Assembly: GCA_965204575.1 (NCBI GenBank)
Contig: OZ241993.1
Span: forward strand, 901,850 to 965,849
Length of the DNA: 64,000 nucleotides
Direction of reading: 5' to 3'
Origin: an uncultured candidatus Porisulfidus sp.
GTDB lineage: Bacteria > Pseudomonadota > Gammaproteobacteria > Poriferisulfidales > Poriferisulfidaceae
In this document: piece after piece, positions 1 to 18,101 of the stretch
Numbering within the stretch: position 1 is the first letter of the stretch
Layout of the letters: each line of letters opens with the position of its first letter
Notes under the pieces: generated by a model
Databases searched by the model: none
Told to the model about the DNA's origin: nothing
What the model saw: only the letters and a program-made list of their open reading frames with translations
Position numbers and translations under genes: made by a program

Positions 1-1
1 T

Positions 2-397
2 CTTGTTGAGCTCAAAGCAATTGATGTAAGAGAGATATGTAACAGTGTAGATCCTGAATGTTACTTGTTGCCTTGTAGATCAGGTGGGATGGATCAACTA
101 CAAAAGCCTGTATATTTCTTGGACGAGCGTCCCAAGCAACGCAAAAACTGGGTTTTAATAGGATGTGAAAGAAGTCTTCAATTTCATCGACACTATTATG
201 GAGATGAGCCACCCCAGGTTGAGATGTGTCCACGCAAGCTTCGACAAGAATCTGAAGTGCCTACACTATTGAAGTGTTGTCTACTTGAATTCGAGGTTGA
301 AAGAGATGGGGACCTGATGGTTGTTCCCTGGGGTGCTGATCTCACTATGGTAGAACAAGCTTTACGGGAAATTTCGAGTGAGGTTGAGTATGTCTAA
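2..397 (+). CDS. hypothetical protein, 5'-truncated by the window edge (C-terminal ~130 aa visible); first visible gene of the comA-like operon
   Basis: Frame 2 is open from nt 2 with no stop codon until 397. The track lists only the TTG-initiated tail 65..397. A 20-nt overlap with the next gene start suggests co-transcription. No motif recognised. Confidence 0.35.
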   Translation, partial: LVELKAIDVREICNSVDPECYLLPCRSGGMDQLQKPVYFLDERPKQRKNWVLIGCERSLQFHRHYYGDEPPQVEMCPRKLRQESEVPTLLKCCLLEFEVERDGDLMVVPWGADLTMVEQALREISSEVEYV

Positions 398-1274
398 GTC
401 TGCTTGGGATGGGATTCAAGTCATAAGTGAATTCATGAAAGAGCGTGTAGAGCGGCAAAAAAACGTTGGTATGACGATGGTTATCGATACGTGTATGGGG
501 CCGCAGATGTTGCAGGATATGCTTCTAGTTTCGAATGAGTATATTGATCACTGGAAGTTTAGTTATGGAGTATCTGCCGTGATGCCTGCAAACATACTCC
601 GTCAAATGCTCGATACATTAAATCAATACAACATCAATACATTTCCTGGAGGTACGCTGCTAGAGGCTGCGATCATTCAGAAAAATTGTCAATCGTACAT
701 GCTGCGTGCCAAAGAGATTGGATTCCGTTCAGTCGAAATTTCAGATGGAACGATCACACTGCCCATTAAGCGCAGGCGTAACGCAATCTTGTGTGCGCTA
801 GACAATGGATTGATTCCAATTACAGAGGTAGGTAAAAAGGACCCCACAAAGCAACCAAGCCCTGAAGAACTCGCAGACCTGATTCTGCAAGATTTATATT
901 TTGGTGCTGAGTATGTAATCTTGGATGCAAGAGAATCCGGGCGCGAAATCGGCATATTTGACCAAAATGGAGACTTGAAGCTCGAATTATTTGATAAAAT
1001 CTTATCGTTAGTTGGGCAAAAAAAAGAAAAGGTCATTTGGGAAGCCCCCCTAAGAAAACAACAGGCCGCCCTGATCAAACAAATTGGTCCAAATGTAAAC
1101 CTTGGGAATATAAGCCCCATGGACGTCTTGTCGCTAGAGTCATTACGCTTGGGACTTCAATATGAATCCTTAAGAGAAGTTGCCGACGAGTCTACCCAGC
1201 GTGGAATGTGGGACCCTGATTCAGTAGAAAACTCTGATACAACCGAGATACCGCAAGAATCTGTAAAGAAATGA
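378..1274 (+). CDS. comA: (2R)-phospho-3-sulfolactate synthase (ComA family; XcbB1-like)
   Basis: 298 aa. Contains ComA-family hallmark segments GMTMVIDTCMG ... YIDHWKFSYGVS, matching ComA KGLTMVIDKGLG ... IDFVKFGWGTS. Low-GC codon usage. Stop overlaps the next start (ATGA). Confidence 0.8.
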   Translation: MRLSMSKSAWDGIQVISEFMKERVERQKNVGMTMVIDTCMGPQMLQDMLLVSNEYIDHWKFSYGVSAVMPANILRQMLDTLNQYNINTFPGGTLLEAAIIQKNCQSYMLRAKEIGFRSVEISDGTITLPIKRRRNAILCALDNGLIPITEVGKKDPTKQPSPEELADLILQDLYFGAEYVILDARESGREIGIFDQNGDLKLELFDKILSLVGQKKEKVIWEAPLRKQQAALIKQIGPNVNLGNISPMDVLSLESLRLGLQYESLREVADESTQRGMWDPDSVENSDTTEIPQESVKK

Positions 1275-2788
1275 GTGACAGATTTTCAGACTCCGATGCT
1301 GTTTTGTGTACCAATGGCCGGTTATCACAGCCTCCCGAAGATATATTAGTTACCAGTGCTTTTAAGAGTGAGCTTCAAGAACAGCTCTGCTTGTCAGAAG
1401 AAATGAATCGGGTGGATATTGCACATGTAATAGGATTAGTTGAGGCCAAGGTTATCAAGAAGAAAGTAGGCGCTGACCTGTTGAATGCATTGCAAAAATT
1501 ACAGGAGAATCCAACGGATTTCCAACCTGACCCTAAATTCGGTGATTTATTTACAAATCGAGAAAATTGGTTAGAACAACACTCAAGCGCAGTAGGCTGG
1601 TTATGTGCAGGCAGAGCGCGTAGAGAAAGCACTACGGTCGCTTATCATTTAACAATAAAAAAGATTTTGCTTGACCTTGCTGATGAAATAACAGCCTTGA
1701 TGCGGGTAATGATGATACAGGTGTCGGCGCATAAGGCATCAGTTATGCCGGATTACACGTATATGCAGCCGGGACAGCCAACGACATTCGGGCATTATTT
1801 ACATTCATTTGTATTCATGCTGATGCGTGATCTTGCGCGCATTGAATCACTTTATGGAAGGGTCAATTGTTGTCCAGCAGGGTGCGGAGGCATAAACGGG
1901 TCAACTCTTCAGATTGACAGGGAAAAGCTGTCAAGCTTGTTAGGCTTTGCGAGGCCTGTCATGCATGCAAGAGATGCAATGTGGCAAGCTGATACTTCCA
2001 TTGAGATCGCGTCAGTTTCAACTTCAATTTTAGTTACGCTGGACCGCTTTTGCGAAGATGTACTGTATTTCGTGACGGAAGAATTCAACTACATCGAGTT
2101 GCAAGATTCTTGTTCACGAGCAAGTAAGATTATGCCGCAGAAAAAAAATCCTTATGCTTTAGCGTATATTCGAGCGCTGGCAAATAAGGTTATTGGCATA
2201 CAGAATATGGTGGTTGTGTCGCAGCGCACACCAACTGGACAGATTGATAATCGCCTGTTCTTGTACGGAGAAATTCCATTCGTGCTTAAGAAAAGCATCG
2301 AAGGAATTGGCTTGTTAAAAAATGCGGTGGAGGGATTGCAGTTCAAAACTTCAAATGCAGTAAACAGAATAAGGGAAAGCTACGCGATGGCCGCGGAACT
2401 AGCTGAACAAATTTCAGTTGAAAATGATTTGGATTATAGAACCGCCCATAAGATTGTTGGAAAAATTGTCCGAAATTTTATACACCTTAAAAAACCTTTA
2501 TTCGAGTTAACGGAACAAGAATTGAATGAAGCTGCAAGCGATGTAGTAGGTCGCCCAATTTCATGCTCCAGGCAGATCCTCGAGATGCTGAATTCTCCGC
2601 ATGTTGCAATTGAGAAAAAGTCCGGGTTAGGAGGCACGTCTAGAGAAAGGATCAAGGAGATGATCGAATACAGTAAACAAGAGATTAATTTTTATAAAAA
2701 ATGGACAGACAATGAACGGGAAAAAATAAAACAAGCAGAAAATGCATTGTCACAACACATGCATACCATTATCAGTCAAGCCCAATGA
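1271..2788 (+). CDS. aspartase/fumarase-superfamily lyase, argininosuccinate-lyase-like (candidate XcbC1/XcbD1-type CoM biosynthesis enzyme)
   Basis: 505 aa. Lyase-1 signature SKIMPQKKNPYALAYIRA matches the fumarate-lyase GSxxMxxKxN motif as in ArgH. Translationally coupled on both sides. Confidence 0.75.
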   Translation: MSDRFSDSDAVLCTNGRLSQPPEDILVTSAFKSELQEQLCLSEEMNRVDIAHVIGLVEAKVIKKKVGADLLNALQKLQENPTDFQPDPKFGDLFTNRENWLEQHSSAVGWLCAGRARRESTTVAYHLTIKKILLDLADEITALMRVMMIQVSAHKASVMPDYTYMQPGQPTTFGHYLHSFVFMLMRDLARIESLYGRVNCCPAGCGGINGSTLQIDREKLSSLLGFARPVMHARDAMWQADTSIEIASVSTSILVTLDRFCEDVLYFVTEEFNYIELQDSCSRASKIMPQKKNPYALAYIRALANKVIGIQNMVVVSQRTPTGQIDNRLFLYGEIPFVLKKSIEGIGLLKNAVEGLQFKTSNAVNRIRESYAMAAELAEQISVENDLDYRTAHKIVGKIVRNFIHLKKPLFELTEQELNEAASDVVGRPISCSRQILEMLNSPHVAIEKKSGLGGTSRERIKEMIEYSKQEINFYKKWTDNEREKIKQAENALSQHMHTIISQAQ

Positions 2789-4137
2789 CTTCATTATTCG
2801 TAGAATCCTCTATATACCAGAATTCCTGGAGTACGGAATCCTTGCGAAAAATTTTTGATGAGAAATCAAGAATCAGAACTTGGCTAGAAATATTGGCCGT
2901 CCTAGCAGAAGTCCAGTCAAAATTTGGGTTAATACCAAAATCAGCTGGAAATTCAATTAGGGAATTTTGCAGTCAAGTTGAGATCGATAGTGAATTACTT
3001 AATGACATCAAAGAAGGGTTTGAACAAAGTGGCCATTCCATGCAGGGCTTTATCAATGCTTTGGCAAAGCGTGGAGGCGAAGATGTAAAAAACTGGTTGT
3101 ATTTTGGCGCGACTGTACAAGATGTAACAGATACCTGGTTTTCGATCGCTTTGAGGGATGTCAGGGAACAGTTTTTGTTGGATATAAATGCAATATGTTC
3201 TATTACCAAAAATCTCATGAGCGAGCATCGCGACACGATCATGCCAGGGCGTACGCATGGACAACACGGGTTGCCTATAACATTTGGATTTAAGGTTGCG
3301 GGTTGGGCGTGTGAACTGGATCGTCATCGAACTCGGTTATCGCAATTGGGTAACCGAATGGACGAGGGGCAGTTATGTGGAGGCGTTGGATCACTTTCAT
3401 CGTTAGGCCGCCACGGTCTAGAAATTCAAAAGGAATTTTGTAATCGCCTCGGATTACGCGACCCCATTATCTCTTGGATTTCAAGTCGGGATGTATTTGC
3501 AGAATGGGGCCAGTTATTAGTGCTGATAACTGGAACTGCAGATCGTATCGGTCATGAAATTTATAATTTGCAAAGGACAGAAATTGCAGAACTTATTGAG
3601 ATTACGCCTATAGAAACCGTAGGCAGTATTACGATGCCGCATAAACAAAACCCAGAAATATCCGAACATCTGGGAACGCTTGCCAGAGTCGTTCGCCATA
3701 ATGCTGCAATTCTTCTTGAGGGCTTAGTCACTGATCATGAACGAGATGGTCGATCTTGGAAAAGTGAATGGCATGTCCTGCCGCTCATAACTTTAGTATC
3801 GGGAAAATCTCTAGAGTTACTGAAATTAATATTGTCAAACTTAGAAGTACAAACACTGAAAATGAAAGAGAACTTAGAAATCAGTGGCGAACAGATATTT
3901 TCAGAAGGTGTAATGCTGGCGTTAGCAAAAAAACTGGGGAAAAACCAGGCTCAAAAAATAGTCTACAAGGAAGCAATGAATGCGCGTAAGAAAGGAATTT
4001 CATTCAGAGAGGCTGTTTTGAATAACTCTCAAATTTCATCCAATCTAAGTGCTGAAGATATCGATGAGATTTTTAAAAATGAAAATCGTCTTGGTTTATG
4101 TACAGCGATGGTTGATAGAGTGCTAAACAAAATATGA
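2785..4137 (+). CDS. aspartase/fumarase-superfamily lyase, adenylosuccinate-lyase / 3-carboxymuconate-cycloisomerase-like (candidate XcbD1/XcbC1-type)
   Basis: 450 aa. Signature SITMPHKQNPEISE resembles the PurB/PcaB-type SSxMPHKxNP motif; also TIMPGRTHGQHGLPITFG. ATGA overlaps at both ends. Confidence 0.75.
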   Translation: MTSLFVESSIYQNSWSTESLRKIFDEKSRIRTWLEILAVLAEVQSKFGLIPKSAGNSIREFCSQVEIDSELLNDIKEGFEQSGHSMQGFINALAKRGGEDVKNWLYFGATVQDVTDTWFSIALRDVREQFLLDINAICSITKNLMSEHRDTIMPGRTHGQHGLPITFGFKVAGWACELDRHRTRLSQLGNRMDEGQLCGGVGSLSSLGRHGLEIQKEFCNRLGLRDPIISWISSRDVFAEWGQLLVLITGTADRIGHEIYNLQRTEIAELIEITPIETVGSITMPHKQNPEISEHLGTLARVVRHNAAILLEGLVTDHERDGRSWKSEWHVLPLITLVSGKSLELLKLILSNLEVQTLKMKENLEISGEQIFSEGVMLALAKKLGKNQAQKIVYKEAMNARKKGISFREAVLNNSQISSNLSAEDIDEIFKNENRLGLCTAMVDRVLNKI

Positions 4138-5126
4138 GTACTCAAACACTCGCATCTGATGACTTGCCGAAAATCAGCCGTTGTGAGTTCGCACAATTTC
4201 CCACTCCTTTGCAGCGGTTTAAAAAACTGGAAAAAGATCTCAATGATATTGAGCTATGGGTTAAACGCGATGACCTAATCGAATTTGGTTATGGGGGAAA
4301 TAAAGTCAGGGCACTTGAATACATAGCGGCAGACGCATTAAAGAGGGGGTCGAAAACGTTAATTACGGGTGCAGGTGTACAGTCCAATCATGTACGTGCA
4401 ACGGCAGCAGTGGCAGCTTATTTAGATCTGAATTGTATCGCTATCTACTGGGGCAGCCCCCCAAAAGAAGTTACAGGCAATTATTACCTGACCAAATTGT
4501 TGGGAGCAGAAACCAGATTTACACACGATACTGATCGAAGCTCGGTAGATACAATGATCCGACTTGTTGAGCAAGAACTGATGCATGGTGATGCCCTTCC
4601 TTATTCAATCCCGCGAGGAGGAGCATGTGCACTAGGGGTAATCGCTCACATGTTTGCGGCGAAGGAATTATTTGAGCAGTGCCAAAGCAAAGAAATAAAT
4701 GTCGATCTTGTAACGCTTGCAGTGGGTTCTGGAGGGACTATAGCTGGTTGGGTACTTGCACGAATCTTGTATGACCATCCTTGGCGAATCGAAGGCTTTA
4801 CTGTGAGTCGGCCTGCCAAGGAGTTAAAGGAAATTGTTCATAATTTAGTACAACAAGCCGCCGTAGTATTGAATGTCGCAGTAAACATAAATTTGGAGGA
4901 GATAGTAATCCGTGAGGGCTACATTGGTGATGGATACGGGATACCAAGTATTGAAGGGAATGAAACAATTAAAGATGTTGCAATCAAGCAAGGTGTTTTT
5001 TTTGATCCGACGTATACAGGAAAAGCATTTGCTGGACTTTCAGATTTAATAAATAATGGTTTCTACAAGGACATTCAAACAGCCGTGTTTTTACATACAG
5101 GAGGAGAGCCGGTTTTGTTTAGTTAG
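4134..5126 (+). CDS. PLP-dependent D-cysteine desulfhydrase / ACC-deaminase family enzyme (XcbE1-like)
   Basis: 330 aa. TPLQRF ... VKRDDL ... GGNKVRALEYI ... GxQSNHVRATAAVAA matches the ACC deaminase/DcyD family; the PLP lysine context is conserved. Confidence 0.8.
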   Translation: MSTQTLASDDLPKISRCEFAQFPTPLQRFKKLEKDLNDIELWVKRDDLIEFGYGGNKVRALEYIAADALKRGSKTLITGAGVQSNHVRATAAVAAYLDLNCIAIYWGSPPKEVTGNYYLTKLLGAETRFTHDTDRSSVDTMIRLVEQELMHGDALPYSIPRGGACALGVIAHMFAAKELFEQCQSKEINVDLVTLAVGSGGTIAGWVLARILYDHPWRIEGFTVSRPAKELKEIVHNLVQQAAVVLNVAVNINLEEIVIREGYIGDGYGIPSIEGNETIKDVAIKQGVFFDPTYTGKAFAGLSDLINNGFYKDIQTAVFLHTGGEPVLFS

Positions 5127-5140
5127 TATAGGGTCAACAA

Positions 5141-6586
5141 ATGACAGAAGTTAAAACTACAACTATTCCTGATTTGCAAACAAGTGCAATGTCGACGGAT
5201 AGCGATGAACGCGAAATTTTAAAATTGGTGGAGAATGCCAGATTTGCACAATTGCAAGTAAATTCCTATACGCAAGAACAAGTAGATGAATTAGTGACAT
5301 CAATTGCCTGGAGCGTTATCAAAAATAGAGAAGAATTGGCACGCATGGCTGTTGATGAGGGTGAGTTTGGAAATTACGCTGATAAAGTAACAAAGATTTA
5401 CAATCGCGTAATAGGAACATTGGCGGATATGCGTTCAGTCAAGACTGTTGGTGTAGTTGAAGAGGACCCTGAGACCGGAATAACAAAGCTCGCTAAACCC
5501 GTGGGTGTAATTGGTGCACTTATTCCGGCAACAGGTCCTGATGCAACGCCGCCCGTCAAGGCATTAGGCGCGATTAAAGCAAGAAACGCGTTGATCATAG
5601 CGCCACACCCAAGGACAAAAAGAAGTTCAGCTAGAGTAGTCGAATGCATACGAGAAGGTTGTACTCGCGTTGGTGCCCCTGAAGACCTGGCACAAGTGAT
5701 AACCAGCCCTTCAATTCAAAAGACAAAAGTGCTAATGGAAAATGTAGATCTCATCGTGGCAACGGGGGGCATGAGTATGGTGAAAGCCGCATACAGCTCA
5801 GGGAAACCTGCATATGGAGTAGGTGTAGGGAATGCGGTACATATAGTGGATGAAACCGCAGACCTCAACGATGCCGCTGATATGATTGCAAAGGCAAAGA
5901 CATTTGATTTTGCAACAAGCTGCTTGGCGGATAACGCCATAGTAGTTCATCAAGATATCTACAAAGTACTAGTAAACAAGTTGATAGAACTTGGTGGTTA
6001 TTTATGTAATAAAGCAGATAAAAATAGCCTTGAAAAAGTTATGTGGCCAAAAGATGCCCATATCCCATCTCCTGAAATCATCGCGAAATCTGCAGAGTCA
6101 ATTGCGAAGAAGGCACAAATTGATATTCAGCCTGGCAAAAGCTTTCTGTTAGTAGAAGAAACCGGAATTGGAGAAGGCCATCCGTTCTCTGGAGAAAAAC
6201 TGTCCGTTGTTTTAGCCGTCTATCAATATTCGGGTAAAATCGAAAATGCGGTAGATGTCGTAAATAGAATTACGAATTATCAGGGCTTGGGACATACATG
6301 CGGAATACATTCACAATCTGAAGCAAACATCAACTATGTTGCCCTAAATACAAAAACAGCAAGAGTCATCGTGAATCAAAATCTTAATGAAGGAGCAGGC
6401 AGCCCCAGAAACGGATTGCCCTATACATTGTCACTTTCCTGTGGGACATGGGGAGGGAACATCACAACCGAAAATGTCAATGTTAGAAACTTTATGAATG
6501 TGACCTGGGTTTCACGTCCAGTACGTCCTCGTGCGTTTAACGAAGAGGAGCTGTTTGAAAATTATTGGAACAAATATGGCAAGTAA
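5141..6586 (+). CDS. CoA-acylating aldehyde dehydrogenase (EutE/PduP/SucD-like ALDH)
   Basis: 481 aa. Related to acylating ALDHs (DLIVATGGMSMVKAAYSSGKPAYGVGVGN ... ADNAIVV). No typical NAD-ALDH Glu/Cys decapeptide. SD-like GGAG upstream. Confidence 0.65.
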   Translation: MTEVKTTTIPDLQTSAMSTDSDEREILKLVENARFAQLQVNSYTQEQVDELVTSIAWSVIKNREELARMAVDEGEFGNYADKVTKIYNRVIGTLADMRSVKTVGVVEEDPETGITKLAKPVGVIGALIPATGPDATPPVKALGAIKARNALIIAPHPRTKRSSARVVECIREGCTRVGAPEDLAQVITSPSIQKTKVLMENVDLIVATGGMSMVKAAYSSGKPAYGVGVGNAVHIVDETADLNDAADMIAKAKTFDFATSCLADNAIVVHQDIYKVLVNKLIELGGYLCNKADKNSLEKVMWPKDAHIPSPEIIAKSAESIAKKAQIDIQPGKSFLLVEETGIGEGHPFSGEKLSVVLAVYQYSGKIENAVDVVNRITNYQGLGHTCGIHSQSEANINYVALNTKTARVIVNQNLNEGAGSPRNGLPYTLSLSCGTWGGNITTENVNVRNFMNVTWVSRPVRPRAFNEEELFENYWNKYGK

Positions 6587-6621
6587 GAATCAGTTATTGA
6601 GATTTTCTCGGCTATACATGG

Positions 6622-8136
6622 GTGCATGACATGAAACATTATGAGTTAGGGACTGTAGAAGACCTAAAAAATTCTACCCGATTAAAACAAGAGGGTTTTG
6701 ATGAAAATTTTTTAAAAGGAAAACGCCCTTCACCGATCGAACCGGTACAAAATGTTATGGATTTGGCCGATGATATTAACAGCAAGAAATATGATGCCGT
6801 AATTGTTGGAAGTGGCCCGGGAGGATCAGCTGTTGCAAGAGAACTGGCAAGGGCAGGAAAAAAAGTAGTCGTACTGGAGTATGGGAAAGATCATCGAGGT
6901 AAATGGTATTACGGAACTGTCGCAGGACCTTTTCTCTACACCGAAAAACGTGGCTTTTTAAAATCTAAGGAAGGGGTAACAATTGTCCGCCCGATGCTTA
7001 CTGGGGGGGCAACCAACATGTTTGCAAGTGCTGCTTCAGGCCCTCCATCTTGGTGGTTTGATAAAACGGGTGTGGATATAGAGTCTGAAGTTAACGAAAC
7101 CATTGATGAGCTTCGGATTGAGGCGTTACCTGAAGAACTCACTGGCGCTGCATCACAACGTATTGGAGAAGCAGGCAGAGATCTAGGCATGGACTGGGTG
7201 CCCCAAACAAAATTCATTCATCCAAAGCGGTGTTACTCTGAATTAGATTGCGGTGATAAATGCATGTTTGGTTGTCGATGTGGAGGCAAGTGGACTGCAA
7301 ATGAATATTTGGATCAAGCTATTGAGGCCGGTGCGTCCGTTATTACCGAGTGTAACGTTCATAATGTTGAGATTGAAGATGGCGTAGCAACCGGGGTATA
7401 TGCTGAAGTACACGGGGAAAGATTCAGACTGAATGGCCAGGTCGTTATTGTTTGTGCTGGAGGAATTGGCACACCTAGAATTTTACAAAATTCAGGCATT
7501 CATAATGCTGGAGATGCACTGGGTGTAGACACTACATTTGTTGTATATGGTGTCATCAAAGAGAAAGGAAATACTGGTGATCCACCTATGACGATCAGCT
7601 ATTGTGACGATGAGAATGGTTTGATGTATTCGACACTCACTCAGCCATTTGGGCTATTTGCGCTTACTCAATATTACAAAGGTTGGAGGCATTTAAAGAA
7701 AGTGCCCAAGTTTCCGCGTATGCTAGGAATTATGGTTAAGATAAAAGAGGGCCTTAAAGGCTATGTGGCACCGGATGGACAGATCAGTATGCCTTTGTTG
7801 CATGATGATTTCCTCCGGGCAAACATTGGGTTCAGTACTAGCAAAAGTATTCTTATGAAAGCGGGATGTGATCCAAATACTATTTTTTGGAACCCCCCAA
7901 GAGGAACACATCCATGCGCAACAGTGCGTATAGGTGATCACTTGGATTCCGATCTAAAAACTCTTGCATTTGATAACTTATATGTCTCGGATGCGAGCAC
8001 TTTCCCATTACCCCTGGTACGTCCTCCGACACTTACAATTATTGGGCAAAGCAAGAGGTTGGCAAAGCATCTTATTGAAACCAAACTCAAAGACACTCAA
8101 ATTCAGAAAGAGGAAAATATGGCATTGGCACAATAG
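6622..8136 (+). CDS. GMC-family FAD-dependent oxidoreductase
   Basis: 504 aa. N-terminal FAD fold DAVIVGSGPGGSAVARELARAGKKVVVLEYG. Its length and C-terminal region fit GMC oxidoreductases. Confidence 0.7.
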   Translation: MHDMKHYELGTVEDLKNSTRLKQEGFDENFLKGKRPSPIEPVQNVMDLADDINSKKYDAVIVGSGPGGSAVARELARAGKKVVVLEYGKDHRGKWYYGTVAGPFLYTEKRGFLKSKEGVTIVRPMLTGGATNMFASAASGPPSWWFDKTGVDIESEVNETIDELRIEALPEELTGAASQRIGEAGRDLGMDWVPQTKFIHPKRCYSELDCGDKCMFGCRCGGKWTANEYLDQAIEAGASVITECNVHNVEIEDGVATGVYAEVHGERFRLNGQVVIVCAGGIGTPRILQNSGIHNAGDALGVDTTFVVYGVIKEKGNTGDPPMTISYCDDENGLMYSTLTQPFGLFALTQYYKGWRHLKKVPKFPRMLGIMVKIKEGLKGYVAPDGQISMPLLHDDFLRANIGFSTSKSILMKAGCDPNTIFWNPPRGTHPCATVRIGDHLDSDLKTLAFDNLYVSDASTFPLPLVRPPTLTIIGQSKRLAKHLIETKLKDTQIQKEENMALAQ

Positions 8137-8183
8137 AAAATGCATGCAATTTTTTGTGCATTAAATAATTTACAAAAAGAAAA

Positions 8184-8846
8184 TTGGAAGAACTAGAATT
8201 AATCAGCTTAAAACTATGTCCTTTTGTACAAAGGGCGGTGATAGTTTTAAATCACAAAAACATAAATTATAAAATCACTCATGTGGACTTGGAGAATCCA
8301 CCAGGCTGGTTTAATAAAATCTCACCATTAAAGAAAGTTCCGCTTCTAAAGATAGGTGAAAAAGATGTCCTGTTTGAATCAGCGGTTATCTGTGAATACA
8401 TAGATGATGTTACACCAATCAAGTTACGGCCAGAAAACCCGCTCCAATTGGCATACAATCGTGCATGGATTGAATTTGGATCTACATGCCTTGTAGATCA
8501 GTATTTGCTGCTTTTAAAAAAAACAGAGAAAGAGTTTAAAGAGCAAGCTGATCAAATCATCAGTAAACTACATTTAGTAGAGAATACTTTGAATAATCAG
8601 CCATTTTTTAATGGCGAACAATTCTCGCTTGTAGATGCCGCATATGCTCCATTACTGATACGATATGAAATCATAAATAATATTATTCCAATATTTAATT
8701 CTCAGAGCTTTGAAAAGCTTTCAAACTGGTCAGATACGATTCTTGGATCAAGCGCTGTACAAGAATCAATAGAATCAGATTTCCTCACCCAGTATAAAGA
8801 CAAAATTGCAGGTTTCGACGGATACTTGTCATCCCATATTAGCTAA
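8184..8846 (+). CDS. glutathione S-transferase-like protein (thioredoxin-fold N-domain)
   Basis: 220 aa. N-terminal GST-like fold LCPFVQRA ... KVPLL ... ESAVICEYI, followed by a helical C-domain. Confidence 0.55.
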   Translation: MEELELISLKLCPFVQRAVIVLNHKNINYKITHVDLENPPGWFNKISPLKKVPLLKIGEKDVLFESAVICEYIDDVTPIKLRPENPLQLAYNRAWIEFGSTCLVDQYLLLLKKTEKEFKEQADQIISKLHLVENTLNNQPFFNGEQFSLVDAAYAPLLIRYEIINNIIPIFNSQSFEKLSNWSDTILGSSAVQESIESDFLTQYKDKIAGFDGYLSSHIS

Positions 8847-8886
8847 AGATTAGCTAGAAAAACTCTACTCTAAAAAACTTTCTTTT

Positions 8887-10026
8887 GTGAATTTACTTGC
8901 ATCCAGATCTGCAGTTTGTGCTGCATTGATATTGGCCATAGGAATGGGTTTTGGACGTTTTTGTTTTACAGGCATTTTCCCTGTAATGGCTGATGAAGGA
9001 TCGTTGACACTAGATGGGGGCGCCTATGTGGCATCTGCAAACTACGCAGGATATTTGCTTGGTGCATTGTTAGCTATTAATACGCACCCTAATGACTCGT
9101 TTAAGCTGTGTCTTTATTCGATTTTAGGTACCGCATTGACAATTGCGTTTTTGGCTGTGTACCAGAGCGTGTGGTTTTTGATTGTCATGCGTGGCCTTTC
9201 AGGTGTATTCAGCGCCACTGCAATGGTTGGCGCCTCATCATGGTTATTGCAGTACAAAGGGGATCATCGTGCTTCGCCAATTTTATACGCAGGTATTGGG
9301 TTTGGAATTTTAATTTCGGCAGAAATCATCGCTATAGGTCAGCACTTTGGATTTGGTAGTGCGGAATTATGGTTCTTGCTAGGCGGAGCGGGTTTGCTAA
9401 TTGGGATACCTTGTATTTGGCTGATGAAAATGGATTCAGCGGGAAAGACCGTAGACCAAATCTATACAGGCATTCACAGTGCAGAAGTATTTGACAAGTG
9501 GAAACTAGTTTTAATTTATGGGTTAGCAGGGTTTGGTTATATCATTACCGCCACTTACCTTCCCTTGATAATCAAAAATGACTTGGGCATTGGAATCGGT
9601 ATCCACATATGGGCAGTGTTTGGATTAGGAGCGATGTTCTCATGTTTTTTTTGGCATGGGGTTCAAGCTAAACTGGGCTCAAGAAATTCGTTATTTGTTA
9701 ATTTAATTATCCAATCGATCGGTGTAGCGCTTCCAGTATTCAGTCAAACATTATCCAGTTATTTGTGCAGTGCACTCTTGGTTGGTGGCACATTTATGGG
9801 ATTTGTTACTATTGCTAAATCAATAGCACTGCAAATATCTCATGAAGCACGAGGTAACCTCATGGCAATCATGACTACTTCGTTTGGAATAGGCCAGATT
9901 GCGGGTCCGCTGGTTGCCAACGAGACCTATGATGTGAGCAAATCGTTTTCTTTGTCTTTTCTCATGGCAAGTATGGCGCTAATTATTGCAGCCGTAATCT
10001 CTTTAAAAGCTAACAGGAAAATTTGA
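8887..10026 (+). CDS. MFS-type membrane transporter (YbfB/YjiJ-like)
   Basis: 379 aa, about 12 predicted TM helices. Conserved N-terminal FGRFCFTGIFPVM segment typical of YbfB/YjiJ. GTG start as in the track. Confidence 0.55.
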   Translation: MNLLASRSAVCAALILAIGMGFGRFCFTGIFPVMADEGSLTLDGGAYVASANYAGYLLGALLAINTHPNDSFKLCLYSILGTALTIAFLAVYQSVWFLIVMRGLSGVFSATAMVGASSWLLQYKGDHRASPILYAGIGFGILISAEIIAIGQHFGFGSAELWFLLGGAGLLIGIPCIWLMKMDSAGKTVDQIYTGIHSAEVFDKWKLVLIYGLAGFGYIITATYLPLIIKNDLGIGIGIHIWAVFGLGAMFSCFFWHGVQAKLGSRNSLFVNLIIQSIGVALPVFSQTLSSYLCSALLVGGTFMGFVTIAKSIALQISHEARGNLMAIMTTSFGIGQIAGPLVANETYDVSKSFSLSFLMASMALIIAAVISLKANRKI

Positions 10027-10097
10027 TTAATCTGCATAGCGATAACCGACAAGCCTCTGGGTATGTACAGATCCTATGTGAAATTGGACAGTTCAAA

Positions 10098-10183
10098 TGG
10101 TGCCGATGGCCGGACTCGAACCGGCACGGCTTTCGCCACTGCCCCCTCAAGACAGCGTGTCTACCAGATTCCACCACATCGGC
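10098..10183 (-). tRNA. leuU: tRNA-Leu (anticodon GAG), class II, 86 nt including CCA
   Basis: Reverse complement is GCCGATGTGGTGGAATCTGGTAGACACGCTGTCTTGAGGGGGCAGTGGCGAAAGCCGTGCCGGTTCGAGTCCGGCCATCGGCACCA. 7-bp acceptor stem, anticodon loop TTGAGGG, long variable arm. Sits directly downstream of secG, as leuU does in E. coli. Coordinates ±1-2 nt. Confidence 0.85.
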
Positions 10184-10218
10184 ACTGCCTGCAGTATTAT
10201 CACAAAACGCGCCAAATC

Positions 10219-10587
10219 CTACTCAGGAATTTCTCCGGCTGGGCCCAATTCCGGTTCGAATTCCGAAATAACCGGCTGTTCCGGGATGCCGGGTTCGGGA
10301 AGGGCCTGCTCGGCTTCCGGTACGGCAATTTGCCCCATGAGGCTCTGTTCGGGTGGTGCGGTTTTGACGATCCACGCCAGCGCTAGGCAGTTGATGAAAA
10401 ACAGGGCAACGATGACGGCGGTGATCCGACTGAGAAAGGTTGCGCTTCCGCGTGCGCCGAAAACAGAACCGGAGGCGCCGCCGCCGAATGCTGCGCCGGT
10501 ATCCGCGCCCCGGCCGTGCTGCAGCAGCACCAGGCCGATGATGCTCAGCGACAGCAGGATCGCGGTGATGAGGAGGACGGTGTACAT
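10219..10587 (-). CDS. secG: preprotein translocase subunit SecG
   Basis: 122 aa. MYTVLLI ... LLQHGRGADTGAAFGGGASGSVFG is the SecG signature. Confidence 0.9.
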   Translation of the reverse strand: MYTVLLITAILLSLSIIGLVLLQHGRGADTGAAFGGGASGSVFGARGSATFLSRITAVIVALFFINCLALAWIVKTAPPEQSLMGQIAVPEAEQALPEPGIPEQPVISEFEPELGPAGEIPE

Positions 10588-10591
10588 CTGC

Positions 10592-11365
10592 CTATTTTCG
10601 CACGGCCTGGCAAATGGACAGGAATTCGTCGGCCTTCAGGGAAGCGCCGCCGACCAGGCCGCCGTCGATATCTGGCATGGAGAACAATTCCGACGCATTG
10701 GCTGCCTTGACGCTGCCGCCGTACAGCACGACCGTGTCCTGCGCAGCGGTTCCGAGCTTCTGCTCCAAGTGCGCCCGGATGGCGGCGTGCACTTCCTGCG
10801 CCATGTCTGGGGTGGCCGCGACTCCAGTGCCGATGGCCCAGACCGGCTCGTAGGCGATCAGCGCGCGCGGGAATGCGTCCGGGAAGCTTCGGACCGGCTG
10901 CAGTTGCCGGTGGATCACGTCCAGGGTCTGTCCCGCCTCGCGCTCCTCCAGGGTTTCTCCGACGCACAGGATCGCCCGGGGTGCGCCCGGGGTGTCTTGT
11001 TGCGCCGACTGGTGCAGGAGGGCGAACTTCTGCTCGATCAACTCGTCGGATTCGCCGTACACGTGACGGCGCTCGGAATGGCCGATGATGGCGTGCGAGC
11101 AGCCCAGTTCGGCCAGCATGGCCACGGAGACTTCGCCGGTGAAGGCGCCCTCGGGTTGGTCGCAGACGTTCTGCGCGCCGATCTGGACCGGGCTTTCCGT
11201 AGTCTCTTCCAGGACGTCAAGCAGGTGGACGAACGGAGGGCAGAGCAGGACTTCCGGAGCGGTCGCATCCCCGACCCCCTGTGCGACGGCACGGGCCAAC
11301 GCCCGGGCGGTGTCCCGGGAGCCATGCATTTTCCAGTTGCCGGCGACGACGGTCGGTCGAGCCAT
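10592..11365 (-). CDS. tpiA: triosephosphate isomerase
   Basis: 257 aa. N-terminal VAGNWKMHG and IGHSERR motifs. Confidence 0.9.
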   Translation of the reverse strand: MARPTVVAGNWKMHGSRDTARALARAVAQGVGDATAPEVLLCPPFVHLLDVLEETTESPVQIGAQNVCDQPEGAFTGEVSVAMLAELGCSHAIIGHSERRHVYGESDELIEQKFALLHQSAQQDTPGAPRAILCVGETLEEREAGQTLDVIHRQLQPVRSFPDAFPRALIAYEPVWAIGTGVAATPDMAQEVHAAIRAHLEQKLGTAAQDTVVLYGGSVKAANASELFSMPDIDGGLVGGASLKADEFLSICQAVRK

Positions 11366-11423
11366 GAAAGGGATCCGGTGGTTATCGGGGGGTAATGCGG
11401 TGGGGCATTATAAAGGGCGGTTC

Positions 11424-12755
11424 TCAGGCACCCGTGTCGATCGAGTTGGCGATAGATTGCGCGAGGGCTTCGACCCTTCCGTGATCTTCTCCCTCCACCA
11501 TGACACGCAACACCGGCTCTGTCCCGGAGGGGCGCAGGAGAACCCGACCTTGCTCGCCCAGTTCATTGCGCGCACTCTGCACGGCCGCATCCGTGGCCGG
11601 GCCGGGCGTACGGTCGCGTGGGCAACGCACATTGATCATGGTCTGTGGATACTTCCGCAGGTCCGAACGCGCCTGGCACAGGGGCTGGCCGAGAATATGC
11701 AGCGCTTCCAGTGTCTGTAGCGCCGCAACCATCGCGTCGCCGGTGCAGGCCCGGTCGCGGCAGATGATGTGGCCGGAGGTCTCTCCGCCGAGTTGCCAGT
11801 CGCGGGCCAGCAGTAATTCCTGGACATAGCGGTCGCCGACCGCAGCCCGCTCGAACGGGATTTCCAGGGCGGCCAGTGCTTTCTCCAGGCCCAGGTTGCT
11901 CATCTGGGTGCCGGCCACGCCGCCGTTCAGGGTGCCCTGAATCTGCCGGGCGCGGGCAATGACATACAAGAGATCGTCCCCGTCCGCGATTTCGCCGTCT
12001 TCGTCGATCATGATCAGCCGGTCGCCGTCGCCGTCCACGGCTAGCCCGAGAGTGGCACGGTGTTCACGGGTTTGGGCGCGGACATATTCCGGGCAGGTCG
12101 CACCACAACCATCGTTGATGTTCGTCCCGTCAGGCTCCACGCCGACGGTAGCCACGTCTGCGCCTAGTTCCTCGAACAGTTTCGACGCAAGCTGGTAAGC
12201 GGCTCCGTGCGCGCAGTCGACCAGCAGGCACAAGCCGTCGAGGCGGAACCCCTCGGGCACGGTGCCCTTGCAGAAATCAAGGTAGCGGCGCCCGGCGTCA
12301 TTGATTCGGCGGGCCTTGCCGGGCAGCGACCGGGGGTCGATGTCCATCGGCTGCTCAAGTTCCGCTTCGATGCGATGCTCGATCTCATCGGGCAGTTTGG
12401 CGCCGTCCGCGTCGAACAGCTTGATGCCGTTGTCGTAGTGCGGGTTGTGCGAGGCGCTGATGACGATGCCGGCGCAGGCATCCAGTTCCCGGGTCAGTTG
12501 GGCGATGGCGGGAGTCGGCTGGGGGCCCAGCAGCAGGACATTGACGCCGGCCGCGGATAAACCGGCCTCCAGCGCAGACTCGAACATGTAGCCGGAACGG
12601 CGGGTGTCCTTGCCGATCAGGATCTGGGGGAATTCGGACTCGCGCCCGAGTACGCGCCCGATGGCCCAGCCCAGGCGCAGCACGAAGTCCGGCGTCATCG
12701 GGCTGACTCCAACCCGGCCCCGGATTCCGTCAGTTCCGAAATAGGTGCGGGACAT
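11424..12755 (-). CDS. glmM: phosphoglucosamine mutase
   Basis: 443 aa. YFGTDGIRG start and the phosphoserine loop SASHNP. Confidence 0.9.
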   Translation of the reverse strand: MSRTYFGTDGIRGRVGVSPMTPDFVLRLGWAIGRVLGRESEFPQILIGKDTRRSGYMFESALEAGLSAAGVNVLLLGPQPTPAIAQLTRELDACAGIVISASHNPHYDNGIKLFDADGAKLPDEIEHRIEAELEQPMDIDPRSLPGKARRINDAGRRYLDFCKGTVPEGFRLDGLCLLVDCAHGAAYQLASKLFEELGADVATVGVEPDGTNINDGCGATCPEYVRAQTREHRATLGLAVDGDGDRLIMIDEDGEIADGDDLLYVIARARQIQGTLNGGVAGTQMSNLGLEKALAALEIPFERAAVGDRYVQELLLARDWQLGGETSGHIICRDRACTGDAMVAALQTLEALHILGQPLCQARSDLRKYPQTMINVRCPRDRTPGPATDAAVQSARNELGEQGRVLLRPSGTEPVLRVMVEGEDHGRVEALAQSIANSIDTGA

Positions 12756-12777
12756 GCGCGGTCGGCCGCGACTGGAA

Positions 12778-14703
<1,926 letters not shown>

Positions 14704-14952
14704 GCGCGCTTTTCCCGGAAACCTTGGCCTTTCAGCATACTAGGATAGCAGATGGCGCGGGGACCGCGGGCGCATTCTGCTCCTGTAACGAGATATGGGG
14801 GAGCAGGCGGGGATTTCCAAGCCAAGACTAGGAGCGTTGCTCTCGAATGAGGTGCAACGACGATACGTGTCATTTCTAGCAACTGAAACATTATTTTCGG
14901 TACTTAACCAGTTTTGTGCATGTAATGAAAGTAAACGGAACATAGTTTGGTA

Positions 14953-15672
14953 TTACTGGGGCAGTGGTGGGGAAAAGAGATTTGAAACCGTAAAATCAGC
15001 GATCAAGTATGTCGATGCTGCAAAGATAACAAAAAGTGCCCATGCTGACACGACTGCTAGCCGGTAAAGGTTTCTAAAGATACTTTCTCCTGTTGTACCA
15101 TGTGTGAATCTATGCGCTAATCGAATCAGGAAATCAGATGCTAGGAGACTAGAAATGCCATTTGACACTGTATAGAAAAGAGGGCCAAGTGTTCCTATGG
15201 CAATTAATGTACCTAGGATGAAATAAGCTGTAGCTTGCCAAGACAAGATAATAGCGTTTTCGTTTGTCCAGAAAAGAACTCCCCCGGCACCAAGCCAGAC
15301 AAACATAACGAAGCCACCAACAAACTCTTTCCTTTTATCATCGGATTTATGGCGAATCCCATGAAGGACTTTTTGAAATTCGATAGATTGATTCTTATGG
15401 ATAGCCTCAATAACACTCAATGTCTCTTCTGCCTGTTTGTTGCTAGCTTCAATCAGAGTTTCAGAAATATTATGGAAGTGGGTCTCATGAATCGCGTCTA
15501 TAGATCTGATTGCTCTGATTTGCAACATTATTATTTCGGTTTGCTTGCCACTACTTTTGTGGAGATTTTCCATAAAGTCTTCAAGGACCTTATGAAATTG
15601 ATTTTCCTGAAACGTGTTAAGAGATCGAATCGTTTCTTCGATTGAGAGTTGCTCGTTCTCGTTTTTAGTCAT
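14953..15672 (-). CDS. hypothetical membrane protein with N-terminal helical repeats and 3-4 C-terminal TM helices
   Basis: 239 aa. Recurring motif about every 35 aa (NQFHKVLEDFMENLHK / ETHFHNISETLIEASNK / IEFQKVLHGIRHK). Hydrophobic C-terminal segments. AT-rich codon usage. No homology recognised. Confidence 0.45.
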   Translation of the reverse strand: MTKNENEQLSIEETIRSLNTFQENQFHKVLEDFMENLHKSSGKQTEIIMLQIRAIRSIDAIHETHFHNISETLIEASNKQAEETLSVIEAIHKNQSIEFQKVLHGIRHKSDDKRKEFVGGFVMFVWLGAGGVLFWTNENAIILSWQATAYFILGTLIAIGTLGPLFYTVSNGISSLLASDFLIRLAHRFTHGTTGESIFRNLYRLAVVSAWALFVIFAASTYLIADFTVSNLFSPPLPQ

Positions 15673-16513
15673 TAGTTTTTTTGGGCTTTTAGGCGCGTGT
15701 GCAGGTTACGGCGCAGAATTGGGCTAATTATGAAGCCCGTTATTCTAACGTTTGCGATTCTGATCGGTGTGCTTTGGGTATCCCGGTAGGGCGCGTGACC
15801 GAGATTTGCGCAGACTAACTATGGCTACCCTCCCTCTACAAAATTATCCCGGACTGGGACTGGGAGGATCGCACCCTATTCCATATTCCATGGCGACAAC
15901 CCGAAATTCCTGCGGGCGATTAACAGCAATTCTGATCGCCACCGGCCCGCCTTTCAAGAAAGGCAAAGATTTTCACGCCACGCCGACTAACCTGACATCC
16001 GACTCCAAGTTTCAGAATCAGTGGTTACGCTTAATGGTGGCGGGGTAGATAAGCAAGTTGTCCAGGTTCTTGGCAGGTCTGCGTGGATAATATCTATTCT
16101 GCAAATGTCTTTCGTGCATACTGCGCCTTGGTCTTTGCCACTTATAGTGAAAATTCACTAACCATTTCCTCTTGAAAATGACTCTTTGGGAAACTTTTCT
16201 ATGGTGGTTTATCTTGCCAGTTGGATGGCTGACGATAGCAGTGTTCCATTTGTCTGGCCAACGCTCTTTTTTGAAAATGCGTACATTGCATATTGGGCTT
16301 GGTCGATTTGGCTTACGATTGCTCTTGGAGATTTCACATCCGCCTTCCTTATCCGCCTTCCTTATGTATACTTATACCCACAATATGAAGGAAGGGGAAA
16401 ATCTATTATTGGGTGACAGCAGCAGTTTATTTCTGACGGCAGTCGGTGCAATAATGGAAGAACTGGCAATTCAGAAAATAAAGCTCACATTTAGTTTGAA
16501 AGGGTTGTTGCTG

Positions 16514-16789
16514 ATGAATAACCATATCAGAATAGTTGCGCTCTACCTGTTGGTTCTTGCTGGCCATCCTGCCTTTGCGGATGATGCTGAAGAAAAGAGA
16601 GATGCGTTCTATGAGAGACTTTCATATGACAGGCAGGCGATGTGCCATTTGATGGCAAAGGAGATACATTGGAGGTACTCGACTCCTAACGCGAAAAGTC
16701 TTTTGGTCTATGACAAATTAGCTCCGGCATTCTGCAAATGGTGCAAGGACTTGGACAAGGATCACTATCGGGCGGTCTGCCCAAAATAA
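16514..16789 (+). CDS. small secreted cysteine-containing protein (signal peptide MNNHIRIVALYLLVLAGHPAFA)
   Basis: 91 aa from an internal ATG of the 205-aa track ORF. Signal peptide followed by a charged domain with four Cys (CHLM ... CKWCKD ... VCPK). Confidence 0.3.
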   Translation: MNNHIRIVALYLLVLAGHPAFADDAEEKRDAFYERLSYDRQAMCHLMAKEIHWRYSTPNAKSLLVYDKLAPAFCKWCKDLDKDHYRAVCPK

Positions 16790-18082: not shown

Positions 18083-18101
18083 ATGGACGGGTTCGGCCGG
18101 G

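What the first reader, a model, noticed from the sequence alone, without database searches (positions are those of the whole stretch)
9900..10200. Low-GC island boundary coincides with the 3' end of tRNA-Leu(GAG) downstream of secG
The compositional switch, by eye from about 40% to about 67% G+C, occurs within about 70 nt of the tRNA-Leu CCA end. This is the classic signature of site-specific integration at a tRNA 3' end, yet no integrase or direct-repeat copy of the tRNA end is visible in the 10 kb shown. The integrase and attL would lie beyond the left window edge, or the island is an old, decayed insertion.
Basis: partly seen in the sequence, partly recalled or inferred. Interest (0 to 1): 0.55.

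Follow-up and report, generated by a model that had tools for sequence, protein, structure and literature searches.

The report
Integrase-less coenzyme M island at tRNA-Leu
The low-GC block that ends at the tRNA-Leu gene is the right-hand 10 kb of a 15.5-kb horizontally acquired gene island, sitting in a slot bounded by the tRNA end and a decayed copy of that end, that carries coenzyme M synthesis and probable epoxide-handling genes and is shared among unrelated sponge-symbiont bacteria; it is a well-known kind of element with an unusual cargo.

Summary
tRNA-Leu(GAG) lies at 10098-10183 on the minus strand. Its CCA end faces a 42% G+C block (1-10085). Core genes secG, tpiA, glmM and ftsH at 61-70% G+C lie on the other side.

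The host is a Candidatus Porisulfidus sponge symbiont. The window holds no repeat and no integrase. Five close relatives carry the whole island (about 15.5 kb, starting about 5.4 kb left of the window). It ends at a decayed 23-nt copy of the tRNA 3' end, 32 nt upstream of an addA-like core gene. A sister species has the same tRNA and scar but a different 5.8-kb defence-like cargo.

The island has no integrase. Its genes are E3-like disulfide reductase, EtnE-like transferase, two CoA-transferase subunits, xcbABCDE (bacterial coenzyme M synthesis), SauS-like aldehyde dehydrogenase, GMC oxidoreductase, GST and MFS.

Island DNA is 97-98% identical among genomes whose flanking core is only 82-93% identical, and identity switches abruptly at the boundaries examined. 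The same module lies next to other tRNAs, or next to IS3 copies or an integrase, in four other lineages.

Verdict: a tRNA-site genomic island without its own recombinase, recently exchanged. New member of a known kind.

The parts
2..397 (+). 3' part of xcbA (DUF7714 / XcbA family, the [2Fe-2S] reductase that makes coenzyme M from sulfoethanethioaldehyde). The gene is cut by the left window edge.
   Evidence: Pfam DUF7714, 122 bits. The full-length orthologue in L090 scores 450 bits against NCBIfam CoM_XcbA_fam, cut-off 150. Enzyme role from PMC9457059.
378..1274 (+). comA/xcbB, phosphosulfolactate synthase. Public gene calls start 4 codons later, giving 294 aa.
   Evidence: Pfam ComA, 263 bits. 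NCBIfam TIGR03849, 288 bits against a cut-off of 280.
1271..2788 (+). xcbC-like gene, aspartase/fumarase superfamily; eliminates phosphate from phosphosulfolactate.
   Evidence: NCBIfam CoM_syn_XcbC, 568.6 bits, just under the cut-off of 575. Pfam Lyase_1 and ASL_C2.
2785..4137 (+). xcbD, 3-sulfopropionylcysteine synthase.
   Evidence: NCBIfam CoM_syn_XcbD, 621 bits against a cut-off of 600.
4134..5126 (+). xcbE-like PLP-dependent enzyme.
   Evidence: NCBIfam CoM_syn_XcbE, 444.3 bits, just under the cut-off of 450. Pfam PALP.
5141..6586 (+). CoA-acylating aldehyde dehydrogenase, SauS-like.
   Evidence: NCBIfam AcylSulfactDhSauS, 500 bits, below the cut-off of 600. Pfam Aldedh.
6622..8136 (+). 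GMC-family FAD oxidoreductase. I infer it is the alcohol-oxidising step.
   Evidence: Pfam GMC_oxred_N and GMC_oxred_C.
8184..8846 (+). Glutathione S-transferase. This stretch is missing from the lineage-2 copies of the module.
   Evidence: Pfam GST_N_2 and GST_C. The lineage-2 alignment has a gap across this gene.
8887..10026 (+). MFS_4 (YbfB-type) transporter, the last gene of the island.
   Evidence: Pfam MFS_4, 249 bits.
10027..10085 (.). Non-coding right end of the transferred module. It is shared with the lineage-2 copy (L083), and homology between the lineages stops here.
   Evidence: Alignment A5.
10086..10097 (.). Short, indel-rich spacer between the module end and the tRNA. Its length varies among relatives from about 10 to about 130 nt.
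   Evidence: Alignments A1, A3 and A5.
10098..10183 (-). tRNA-Leu(GAG), intact. Its 3' 23 nt (10098-10120) is the sequence repeated at the far end of the island in relatives, so it is the att core region.
   Evidence: for the tRNA. for the repeat in L090, L091, L092, L150 and L002.
10219..14703 (-). Core flank, G+C 0.61-0.70: secG (10219-10587), tpiA (10592-11365), glmM (11424-12755) and ftsH (12778-14703).
   Evidence: Pfam. Collinear with the Porisulfidus genomes L001 and L002.

Best explanation
Window 1-10085 is the right-hand two thirds of a genomic island of about 15.5 kb. The island occupies a slot between the 3' end of tRNA-Leu(GAG) and a displaced, decayed copy of that 3' end, which sits just upstream of an addA-like core gene.

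Shown:
- The composition jump and the tRNA adjacency.
- The tRNA-end direct repeat at the far boundary in five relatives.
- A different cargo in the same slot in a sister species.
- The absence of any integrase, transposase or terminal repeat in this lineage's island.
- Island DNA much more similar (97-98%) than the flanks (82-93%).
- An abrupt switch in identity at the tRNA (right boundary, three pairs) and at the scar (left boundary, one informative pair).
- The same module in four other lineages, in three of them immediately or about 1.2 kb downstream of a different tRNA.

Inferred mechanism: a tyrosine-integrase element once integrated into the tRNA 3' end and created the duplicated att. 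The recombinase was then lost. The slot has since been refilled or exchanged. The present cargo arrived recently and spread between Porisulfidus species, either through recombination at the two att copies by an integrase supplied in trans, or through recombination anchored on the invariant tRNA.

Inferred function: the cargo makes coenzyme M (xcbABCDE). It then uses coenzyme M to capture and oxidise a small epoxide or related electrophile to an acyl-CoA, through the EtnE-like transferase, GMC oxidoreductase, SauS-like dehydrogenase, CoA-transferase pair and E3-like disulfide reductase. The GST and MFS transporter are accessory.
For: Boundary and tRNA.

Same junction in independent assemblies: L001, L081, L090, L091, L147 and L150.

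Far-end repeat: TGGTGC-GATGGTCGGACTTGAA in L090, L091 and L092, against TGGTGCCGATGGCCGGACTCGAA in the tRNA, placed exactly at the G+C switch. No match of that quality in 300 block shuffles. The copy in L150 is more decayed.

Sister species L002: a 20/22 copy of the tRNA end at the same distance from the addA start, with homology between the species beginning exactly at that copy. Its cargo is a GajB-like helicase-nuclease, an unknown protein and a methyltransferase.

No mobility genes in the island. No terminal repeats.

Island against core identity:
- Window vs L081: 97.8% against 82.7%.
- Window vs L090: 97.4% against 92.1%.
- Window vs L150: 98.2% against 93.4%.
- L090 vs L092: 84-95% per 100 nt up to the scar, then 100%.

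Other lineages:
- Between tRNA-Tyr and tRNA-Gly/Thr, with a 13-nt copy of the tRNA-Tyr end.
- After nuoN and tRNA-Met.
- After tRNA-Gly(GCC), flanked by 99.8%-identical IS3 copies.
- Next to a tyrosine integrase.

Cargo identity. Comparison with PMC11507031 and PMC9457059.
Against: - The window does not contain the left end, so the repeat is inferred for this genome from relatives at 97-98% island identity.
- The scar has no exact stretch longer than 6 nt in common with the tRNA. It could hardly serve today as a recombination core, which weakens the idea of integrase-mediated exchange in trans.
- No integrase-bearing occupant of this tRNA and no empty site was found.
- The tRNA is invariant, so a breakpoint inside it fits homologous recombination as well as site-specific recombination.
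- For tRNA-Met (lineage 3) no tRNA-end repeat was found.
- XcbC, XcbE and SauS score just under or under NCBI's cut-offs. EtnE identity rests only on membership of the MetE family.
- No alkene monooxygenase was looked for, so the substrate is unknown.
Confidence: 0.75

Rival explanations
1. Exchange driven by flanking homology, with no site-specific step for the present cargo. The module moved between Porisulfidus genomes by transformation or transduction, and ordinary homologous recombination in the conserved flanks (tRNA-secG-tpiA on one side, addA on the other) put it in place. The tRNA-end scar would be an unrelated relic of an older element.
For: - The scar is too decayed to act as a crossover core.
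- No integrase lies in or near the island.
- The 86-nt tRNA is the longest perfectly conserved stretch next to the island, so it is a natural crossover point.
- The scar is shared with a species that carries another cargo. It may therefore predate the cargo, although independent integrations at the same tRNA end would leave it at the same place.
Against: - On the left side there is no invariant anchor, yet L090 and L092 switch from 84-91% to 100% identity within 100 nt of the scar. Homologous recombination should leave tracts of co-transferred flank with scattered end points.
- This mechanism cannot explain how the module entered lineages 2 to 5, which have unrelated flanks.
Confidence: 0.17
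2. Transposition by insertion sequences. The module is, or was, a composite transposon, and its position next to a tRNA is incidental.
For: - In L095 the etnE-to-GMC block lies between 1.2-kb IS3 copies that are 99.8% identical.
- L087 and L089 carry an IS3 orfA remnant inside the module.
- In Methylohalobius the analogous cluster is flanked by IS66 and IS5.
Against: - In the window's lineage the module contains no IS, no IS remnant and no inverted or direct terminal repeat.
- The boundaries coincide with a tRNA end and its copy, not with a target-site duplication.
- The module lies immediately or about 1.2 kb downstream of a tRNA in four of five lineages.
Confidence: 0.05
3. The block is not an island. 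It is either vertically inherited core with odd composition, or a metagenome mis-join of a low-GC organism to a high-GC contig.
For: - The cluster is present in every close relative recovered.
- Most of the comparison sequences are metagenome assemblies.
Against: - The sister species L002, a complete chromosome, lacks the cluster at this site.
- Island and core divergences differ up to about eight-fold.
- The identical junction occurs in independent short-read and long-read assemblies, including contigs of 1.7 Mb and 240 kb.
Confidence: 0.03

Closest known systems
tRNA-associated genomic islands integrated by P4-type or other tyrosine integrases (pathogenicity, symbiosis or metabolic islands at tRNA 3' ends). 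Named from established knowledge.
   Same: - The island abuts the 3' end of an intact tRNA.
- The far end carries a direct repeat of the tRNA's 3' 20-odd nt, including CCA.
- Composition is strongly atypical.
- Occupancy of the site differs between sister species.
   Different: - There is no integrase, excisionase or any other mobility gene.
- The cargo fills the slot almost exactly: about 37 nt of lineage-specific sequence at the scar end and 10-70 nt at the tRNA end.
- The repeat is decayed, with 3 to 5 changes in 23 nt.
CIMEs (cis-mobilisable elements) and other att-flanked remnants without an integrase, described beside ICEs in streptococci. Named from established knowledge, not tested against sequences here.
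   Same: The element is bounded by att copies, has no recombination or transfer genes of its own, and shows signs of recent horizontal spread.
   Different: No partner ICE or IME using this att was found. The far att is probably too degenerate to recombine. Mobilisation is inferred from identity patterns only.
Epoxyethane oxidation / coenzyme M biosynthesis gene clusters of Methylohalobius crimeensis, Mycolicibacterium rhodesiae JS60 and Xanthobacter autotrophicus Py2 (PMC11507031, PMC9457059).
   Same: - An EtnE-type MetE-family transferase, a two-subunit CoA-transferase and an E3-like flavoprotein disulfide reductase.
- Phosphosulfolactate synthase, two aspartase/fumarase-family enzymes, a D-cysteine-desulfhydrase-like PLP enzyme and a sulfoacetaldehyde-dehydrogenase-like enzyme.
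- Patchy, laterally transferred distribution, inside a genomic island in M. crimeensis.
   Different: - This cluster has both XcbA and the SauS-like dehydrogenase.
- A GMC oxidoreductase replaces the short-chain alcohol dehydrogenase.
- A GST and an MFS transporter are added.
- There is no acyl-CoA synthetase, no dienoyl-CoA reductase, no MEDS regulator and no adjacent monooxygenase.
- The hosts are sponge-associated sulfur oxidisers and other sponge symbionts.

Membership tests
tRNA-site integrative genomic island | One boundary lies at the 3' end of an intact tRNA gene. | tested here: met
   The tRNA-Leu(GAG) 3' end is at 10098. The low-GC block ends at about 10085.
tRNA-site integrative genomic island | A direct repeat of the tRNA 3' end lies at the other boundary. 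| tested here: met
   Not in the window. Present at the G+C switch in L090, L091, L092 and L150, and in the sister species L002. No match of that quality in 300 shuffles. Met in relatives and inferred for the window's genome.
tRNA-site integrative genomic island | The island carries a tyrosine or serine integrase gene. | tested here: not met
   None of the 13 genes in the complete island copies is a recombinase. tblastn of the window with two integrases found nothing. The XerD-like gene beyond addA and dsbC is read as the housekeeping xerD-dsbC pair, from established knowledge.
tRNA-site integrative genomic island | Composition is atypical, and presence or content varies among related genomes. 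| tested here: met
   G+C is 0.42 against 0.61-0.70. L002 has a different cargo. Island identity exceeds core identity.
CIME-like att-flanked element without integrase | Functional att sites on both sides, and a cognate integrative element in the same host range that can mobilise it. | tested here: inconclusive
   The far att is degenerate, with at most 6 nt of exact match. No cognate element was found in metagenome or viral scans. The abrupt identity switch at both boundaries is compatible with this family.
Composite transposon | The module is flanked by insertion sequence copies. | tested here: not met
   There is no IS or terminal repeat in the window's lineage. The feature is met only in the distant copy L095.
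Bacterial coenzyme M biosynthesis operon xcbABCDE | All five enzymes are present, adjacent and recognised by curated models. | tested here: met
   The genes are in the order A-B-C-D-E. XcbA scores 450 (cut-off 150), ComA 288 (280) and XcbD 621 (600). XcbC scores 568.6 (575) and XcbE 444.3 (450), both marginally below cut-off. The chemistry was not tested.
CoM-dependent epoxyalkane pathway (EtnE/EaCoMT cluster) | An epoxyalkane:CoM transferase and downstream enzymes that regenerate CoM. | tested here: inconclusive
   A 370-aa single-domain MetE-family protein is present: Pfam Meth_synt_2, and the best solved relative is a B12-independent methionine synthase. No EtnE-specific model was available. 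The E3-like reductase scores 482 against a cut-off of 435. Gene content matches the published cluster only in part.

The most novel reading that the evidence does not exclude
The 15.4-kb coenzyme M / epoxide module is an actively circulating metabolic cassette with no recombinase of its own. Trans-acting integrases shuttle it between phylogenetically distant sponge symbionts (host G+C from roughly 47% to 66%) into tRNA-adjacent slots. It gives sponge-associated sulfur oxidisers a coenzyme M-dependent way of handling a host- or seawater-derived epoxide or alkene. I found no paper in the searched library linking coenzyme M synthesis to sponge symbionts.
Probability: 0.2. Interest if true: 0.65.

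Novelty: new member of a known kind. Interest (0 to 1): 0.42.

Why it matters
As a mobile-element finding this is textbook: a tRNA-site island with a decayed att and no integrase.

The added value is in two points:
- One nearly identical 15-kb module (85-98% DNA identity across the window's lineage and lineages 2 and 3; about 76-77% in two more distant lineages) is shared by sponge-symbiont lineages with very different genome composition. It usually sits beside a tRNA, which points to recent and repeated gene flow inside the sponge microbiome.
- The module encodes the recently solved bacterial coenzyme M pathway together with an EtnE-type cluster. This suggests that sponge symbionts make coenzyme M and use it on some small electrophile. 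If so, it would extend the known ecological range of bacterial coenzyme M metabolism.

Tried and rejected
- Exact-sequence look-ups of three window proteins found nothing on record. The context was reached instead through ComA homologues and cluster members.
- An empty-site pattern (tRNA end, 10-40 nt, addA start) in JGI metagenomes gave 0 hits.
- The tRNA 3' 40-mer in metagenomes gave 51 loci. Nearly all were other gammaproteobacteria with no G+C drop, no repeat and no integrase by phmmer. Only L147 was Porisulfidus-like.
- The tRNA-end 25-mer in viral contigs hit only phage tRNA arrays, matching a tRNA-Phe.
- I looked for terminal direct or inverted repeats of the module itself and found none of 8 nt or more.
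- I looked for a tRNA-Met end copy in lineage 3 and found none.
- The idea that the E3-like gene is a 2-ketopropyl-CoM carboxylase orthologue was dropped. NCBIfam and the PDB place it with dihydrolipoyl dehydrogenases.
- Literature searches found no paper on coenzyme M in sponge symbionts or on this island.
Full report
**Observation**

The window has an intact 86-nt tRNA-Leu(GAG) at 10098-10183 on the minus strand (Rfam tRNA, 49 bits). Its CCA end is at 10098 and points towards lower coordinates.

Every 1-kb bin from 1 to 10000 has 0.35-0.44 G+C. Bins from 10001 to 14000 have 0.61-0.66. In 200-nt bins the change runs from 0.42 to 0.585 to above 0.62 across 9900-10400.

On the high-GC side, all on the minus strand, are secG (10219-10587), tpiA, glmM and ftsH.

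On the low-GC side there are nine co-directional genes on the plus strand. The last, an MFS_4 transporter, stops at 10026, 71 nt from the tRNA end.

The window has no second copy of the tRNA 3' end. No island ORF is an integrase.

**Host and relatives**

A scan of reference genomes with TpiA gave two near relatives, both Candidatus Porisulfidus (sponge-associated sulfur oxidisers): TsSOB (L001, 94% TpiA identity) and the complete chromosome OZ243950 (L002, 84%). All other hits were at or below 56%. Both relatives have tRNA-Leu(GAG) after secG, followed at once by low-GC DNA.

L001 carries the same genes as the window. L002 carries a different 5.8-kb block: a GajB-like UvrD/PD-(D/E)XK helicase-nuclease, an unknown 446-aa protein and a type-II-like methyltransferase. 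It then returns to 65-70% G+C at an addA-like gene.

In L002 the far end of the block carries TTTGAGTCCGGCCATCGACACC. This is a 20/22 copy of the tRNA 3' end TTCGAGTCCGGCCATCGGCACC.

**The missing left end**

Homologues of the window's ComA led to contigs that hold the whole island. These are L090 (a 1.73-Mb contig), L091, L092 and L150 (a 240-kb contig). L150 is the closest: the window's island is 98.2% identical to it.

The gene order in all four is as follows. L092 ends at its contig end within the island, before the MFS gene, so it lacks the last part.

1. xerD-like gene, dsbC, and an addA-like gene on the minus strand.
2. A degenerate copy of the tRNA end.
3. E3-like flavoprotein disulfide reductase.
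4. A 370-aa MetE-family (EtnE-like) protein.
5. Two CoA-transferase subunits.
6. DUF7714, ComA, lyase, lyase and a PLP enzyme.
7. Aldehyde dehydrogenase, GMC oxidoreductase, GST and MFS.
8. tRNA-Leu, secG and tpiA.

The copy reads TGGTGC-GATGGTCGGACTTGAA in L090, L091 and L092. That is 2 substitutions and 1 deletion against 23 nt of the tRNA end, with the CCA included. In L150 it reads TGGTGC-GATGGTTGAACTTGAA, with 4 substitutions and 1 deletion.

The copy sits exactly where G+C falls, 32 nt upstream of the addA start. No match of the L090 quality appeared in 300 composition-preserving shuffles.

Aligning L002 with L090-L092 shows that homology between the two species begins precisely at this copy and continues into addA. 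On the island side they are unrelated. The slot between tRNA-Leu and the scar is therefore a variable site with different cargo in sister species.

By alignment to L150, the island is about 15.5 kb long and begins about 5.4 kb to the left of window position 1. L081 independently extends the window 5.2 kb leftwards, and all of that extension is low in G+C.

**No mobility genes**

None of the 13 island genes is a recombinase or a transposase. The module has no terminal direct or inverted repeats of its own. tblastn of the window with two integrases taken from related loci found nothing. I read the xerD-like gene next to dsbC as the housekeeping pair, from established knowledge.

**The cargo is younger than its surroundings**

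| Pair | Island identity | Adjacent core identity |
|---|---|---|
| Window vs L150 | 98.2% | 93.4% |
| Window vs L090 | 97.4% | 92.1% |
| Window vs L001 | 97.2% | 92.1% |
| Window vs L081 | 97.8% | 82.7% |
| L090 vs L092 | 98.3% | 94.2% |

L147, a JGI contig with 88% core identity, has the island end at 96%.

In 100-nt bins, L090 vs L092 runs at 84-95% through addA up to the scar and at 100% from the first island bin. Window vs L081 runs at 95-100% up to the MFS stop and at 63-91% beyond the tRNA.

Such contrasts cannot come from selection or from local mutation rate. The module has been exchanged among diverged Porisulfidus lineages after they split, and the breakpoints lie at or very near the tRNA and, in the one informative pair, the scar.

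**The same module elsewhere**

A shared block equivalent to L090 4256-19636 recurs in four other lineages:

- **Lineage 2:** 85-89% DNA identity, flanks about 50-58% G+C. It lies between tRNA-Tyr and tRNA-Gly/tRNA-Thr. A 13-nt copy of the tRNA-Tyr end (TCCCCCTCCACCA) sits 50 nt before tRNA-Gly.
- **Lineage 3:** 89% identity, flanks about 47% G+C. It lies directly after nuoN and tRNA-Met, with an IS3 orfA remnant inside. No tRNA-end repeat was found.
- **Lineage 4:** about 77% identity. It lies 1.2 kb after uvrC, pgsA and tRNA-Gly(GCC). The etnE-to-GMC part lies between 99.8%-identical IS3 copies.
- **Lineage 5:** about 76% identity. A 363-aa tyrosine integrase lies immediately after the GST gene, and there is no tRNA in the locus.

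So the module travels, uses more than one vehicle, and ends up beside a tRNA in four of five lineages.

**What the cargo does**

NCBIfam recognises the following:

| Model | Score (bits) | Cut-off (bits) |
|---|---|---|
| XcbA family | 450 | 150 |
| Phosphosulfolactate synthase | 288 | 280 |
| XcbC | 568.6 | 575 |
| XcbD | 621 | 600 |
| XcbE | 444.3 | 450 |
| Acylating sulfoacetaldehyde dehydrogenase (SauS) | 500 | 600 |
| E3-type dihydrolipoyl dehydrogenase | 482 | 435 |

The bacterial coenzyme M pathway runs as follows (PMC9457059):

1. PEP plus sulfite gives phosphosulfolactate (XcbB).
2. Phosphate is eliminated to give sulfoacrylate (XcbC).
3. Cysteine is added (XcbD).
4. A PLP-dependent cleavage gives sulfoethanethioaldehyde (XcbE).
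5. Reduction gives CoM (XcbA).

This rests on XcbA-E of Xanthobacter.

The surrounding genes resemble the epoxyethane/CoM cluster described in Methylohalobius crimeensis and in ethene-degrading mycobacteria. That cluster also lies in a genomic island and is scattered by lateral transfer (PMC11507031).

The differences here are a GMC oxidoreductase in place of a short-chain dehydrogenase, added GST and MFS genes, and no acyl-CoA synthetase or dienoyl-CoA reductase.

EtnE identity rests only on family membership. The function is therefore inferred: coenzyme M synthesis is likely, and the substrate of the CoM-dependent branch is unknown.

**Mechanism**

The best-supported account is that an integrase-bearing element once integrated into the tRNA-Leu 3' end. 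This left the displaced end fragment upstream of addA. The recombinase was then lost. The slot now holds a bare metabolic module, which has recently spread among Porisulfidus species and is related to copies in other sponge symbionts.

Whether the recent spread used the att copies with an integrase supplied in trans (CIME-like), or homologous recombination anchored on the invariant tRNA, cannot be settled here. The sharp left breakpoint favours the former. The decayed scar and the lack of any cognate element favour the latter.

IS-mediated transposition is documented for a distant copy but not for this lineage. Vertical inheritance and assembly artefact are excluded by L002, by the island-against-core contrast, and by identical junctions in independent short-read and long-read assemblies.

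**Verdict**

This is a new member of a known kind, namely a tRNA-site genomic island or islet without an integrase. Its moderate interest comes from the cargo and from its circulation among sponge symbionts, not from the tRNA boundary itself.

Noticed in passing
window 14826-17355: A second low-GC patch (0.37-0.52 G+C) lies between ftsH and a metallophosphoesterase gene. It holds four ORFs (239, 93, 205 and 93 aa) with no Pfam match. It is an insertion relative to the Porisulfidus-like contig L147, where the two flanks are about 85 nt apart, and homology to L002 also stops at 14825. No flanking repeats and no tRNA are present.
   Followed up: partly
window 18082-18097 vs L147 6164-8326: L147 in turn has about 2.1 kb that the window lacks at this point. 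These small genomes are peppered with short variable inserts.
   Followed up: no
window 23051-24999 and 41189-44101: Two further patches of lower G+C (0.51-0.56) encode proteins of 315, 356 and 970 aa with no Pfam match. They may be more acquired genes.
   Followed up: no
L002 11401-11436 and 17180-17215: A second direct repeat of 36 nt (86% identical) is nested just inside the tRNA-end repeat that bounds the defence-like island of the sister species. It might be the att of a second element that entered the same slot. Unexplained.
   Followed up: no
L082, L083, L086 from about 19650 on (after tRNA-Thr): In lineage 2 the DNA after tRNA-Thr differs between strains: CTD9/MC5 conflict-system domains, a SIR2_2 protein, or a P4-type integrase. 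This looks like a separate, active variable site next to the CoM module.
   Followed up: no
L090 17746-19468; L087 10882-13750: Several long-read assemblies show split or missing gene calls in GST/MFS or in the two lyases, although the DNA aligns without large gaps. These are probably homopolymer frameshift errors or real pseudogenes. They were not resolved.
   Followed up: no
window 10027-10097 and equivalents in L001, L081, L090: The spacer between the MFS stop and the tRNA end varies from about 10 to about 130 nt among otherwise 97-98% identical islands, and in TsSOB the MFS C-terminus is altered. The junction is an indel hot spot.
   Followed up: partly
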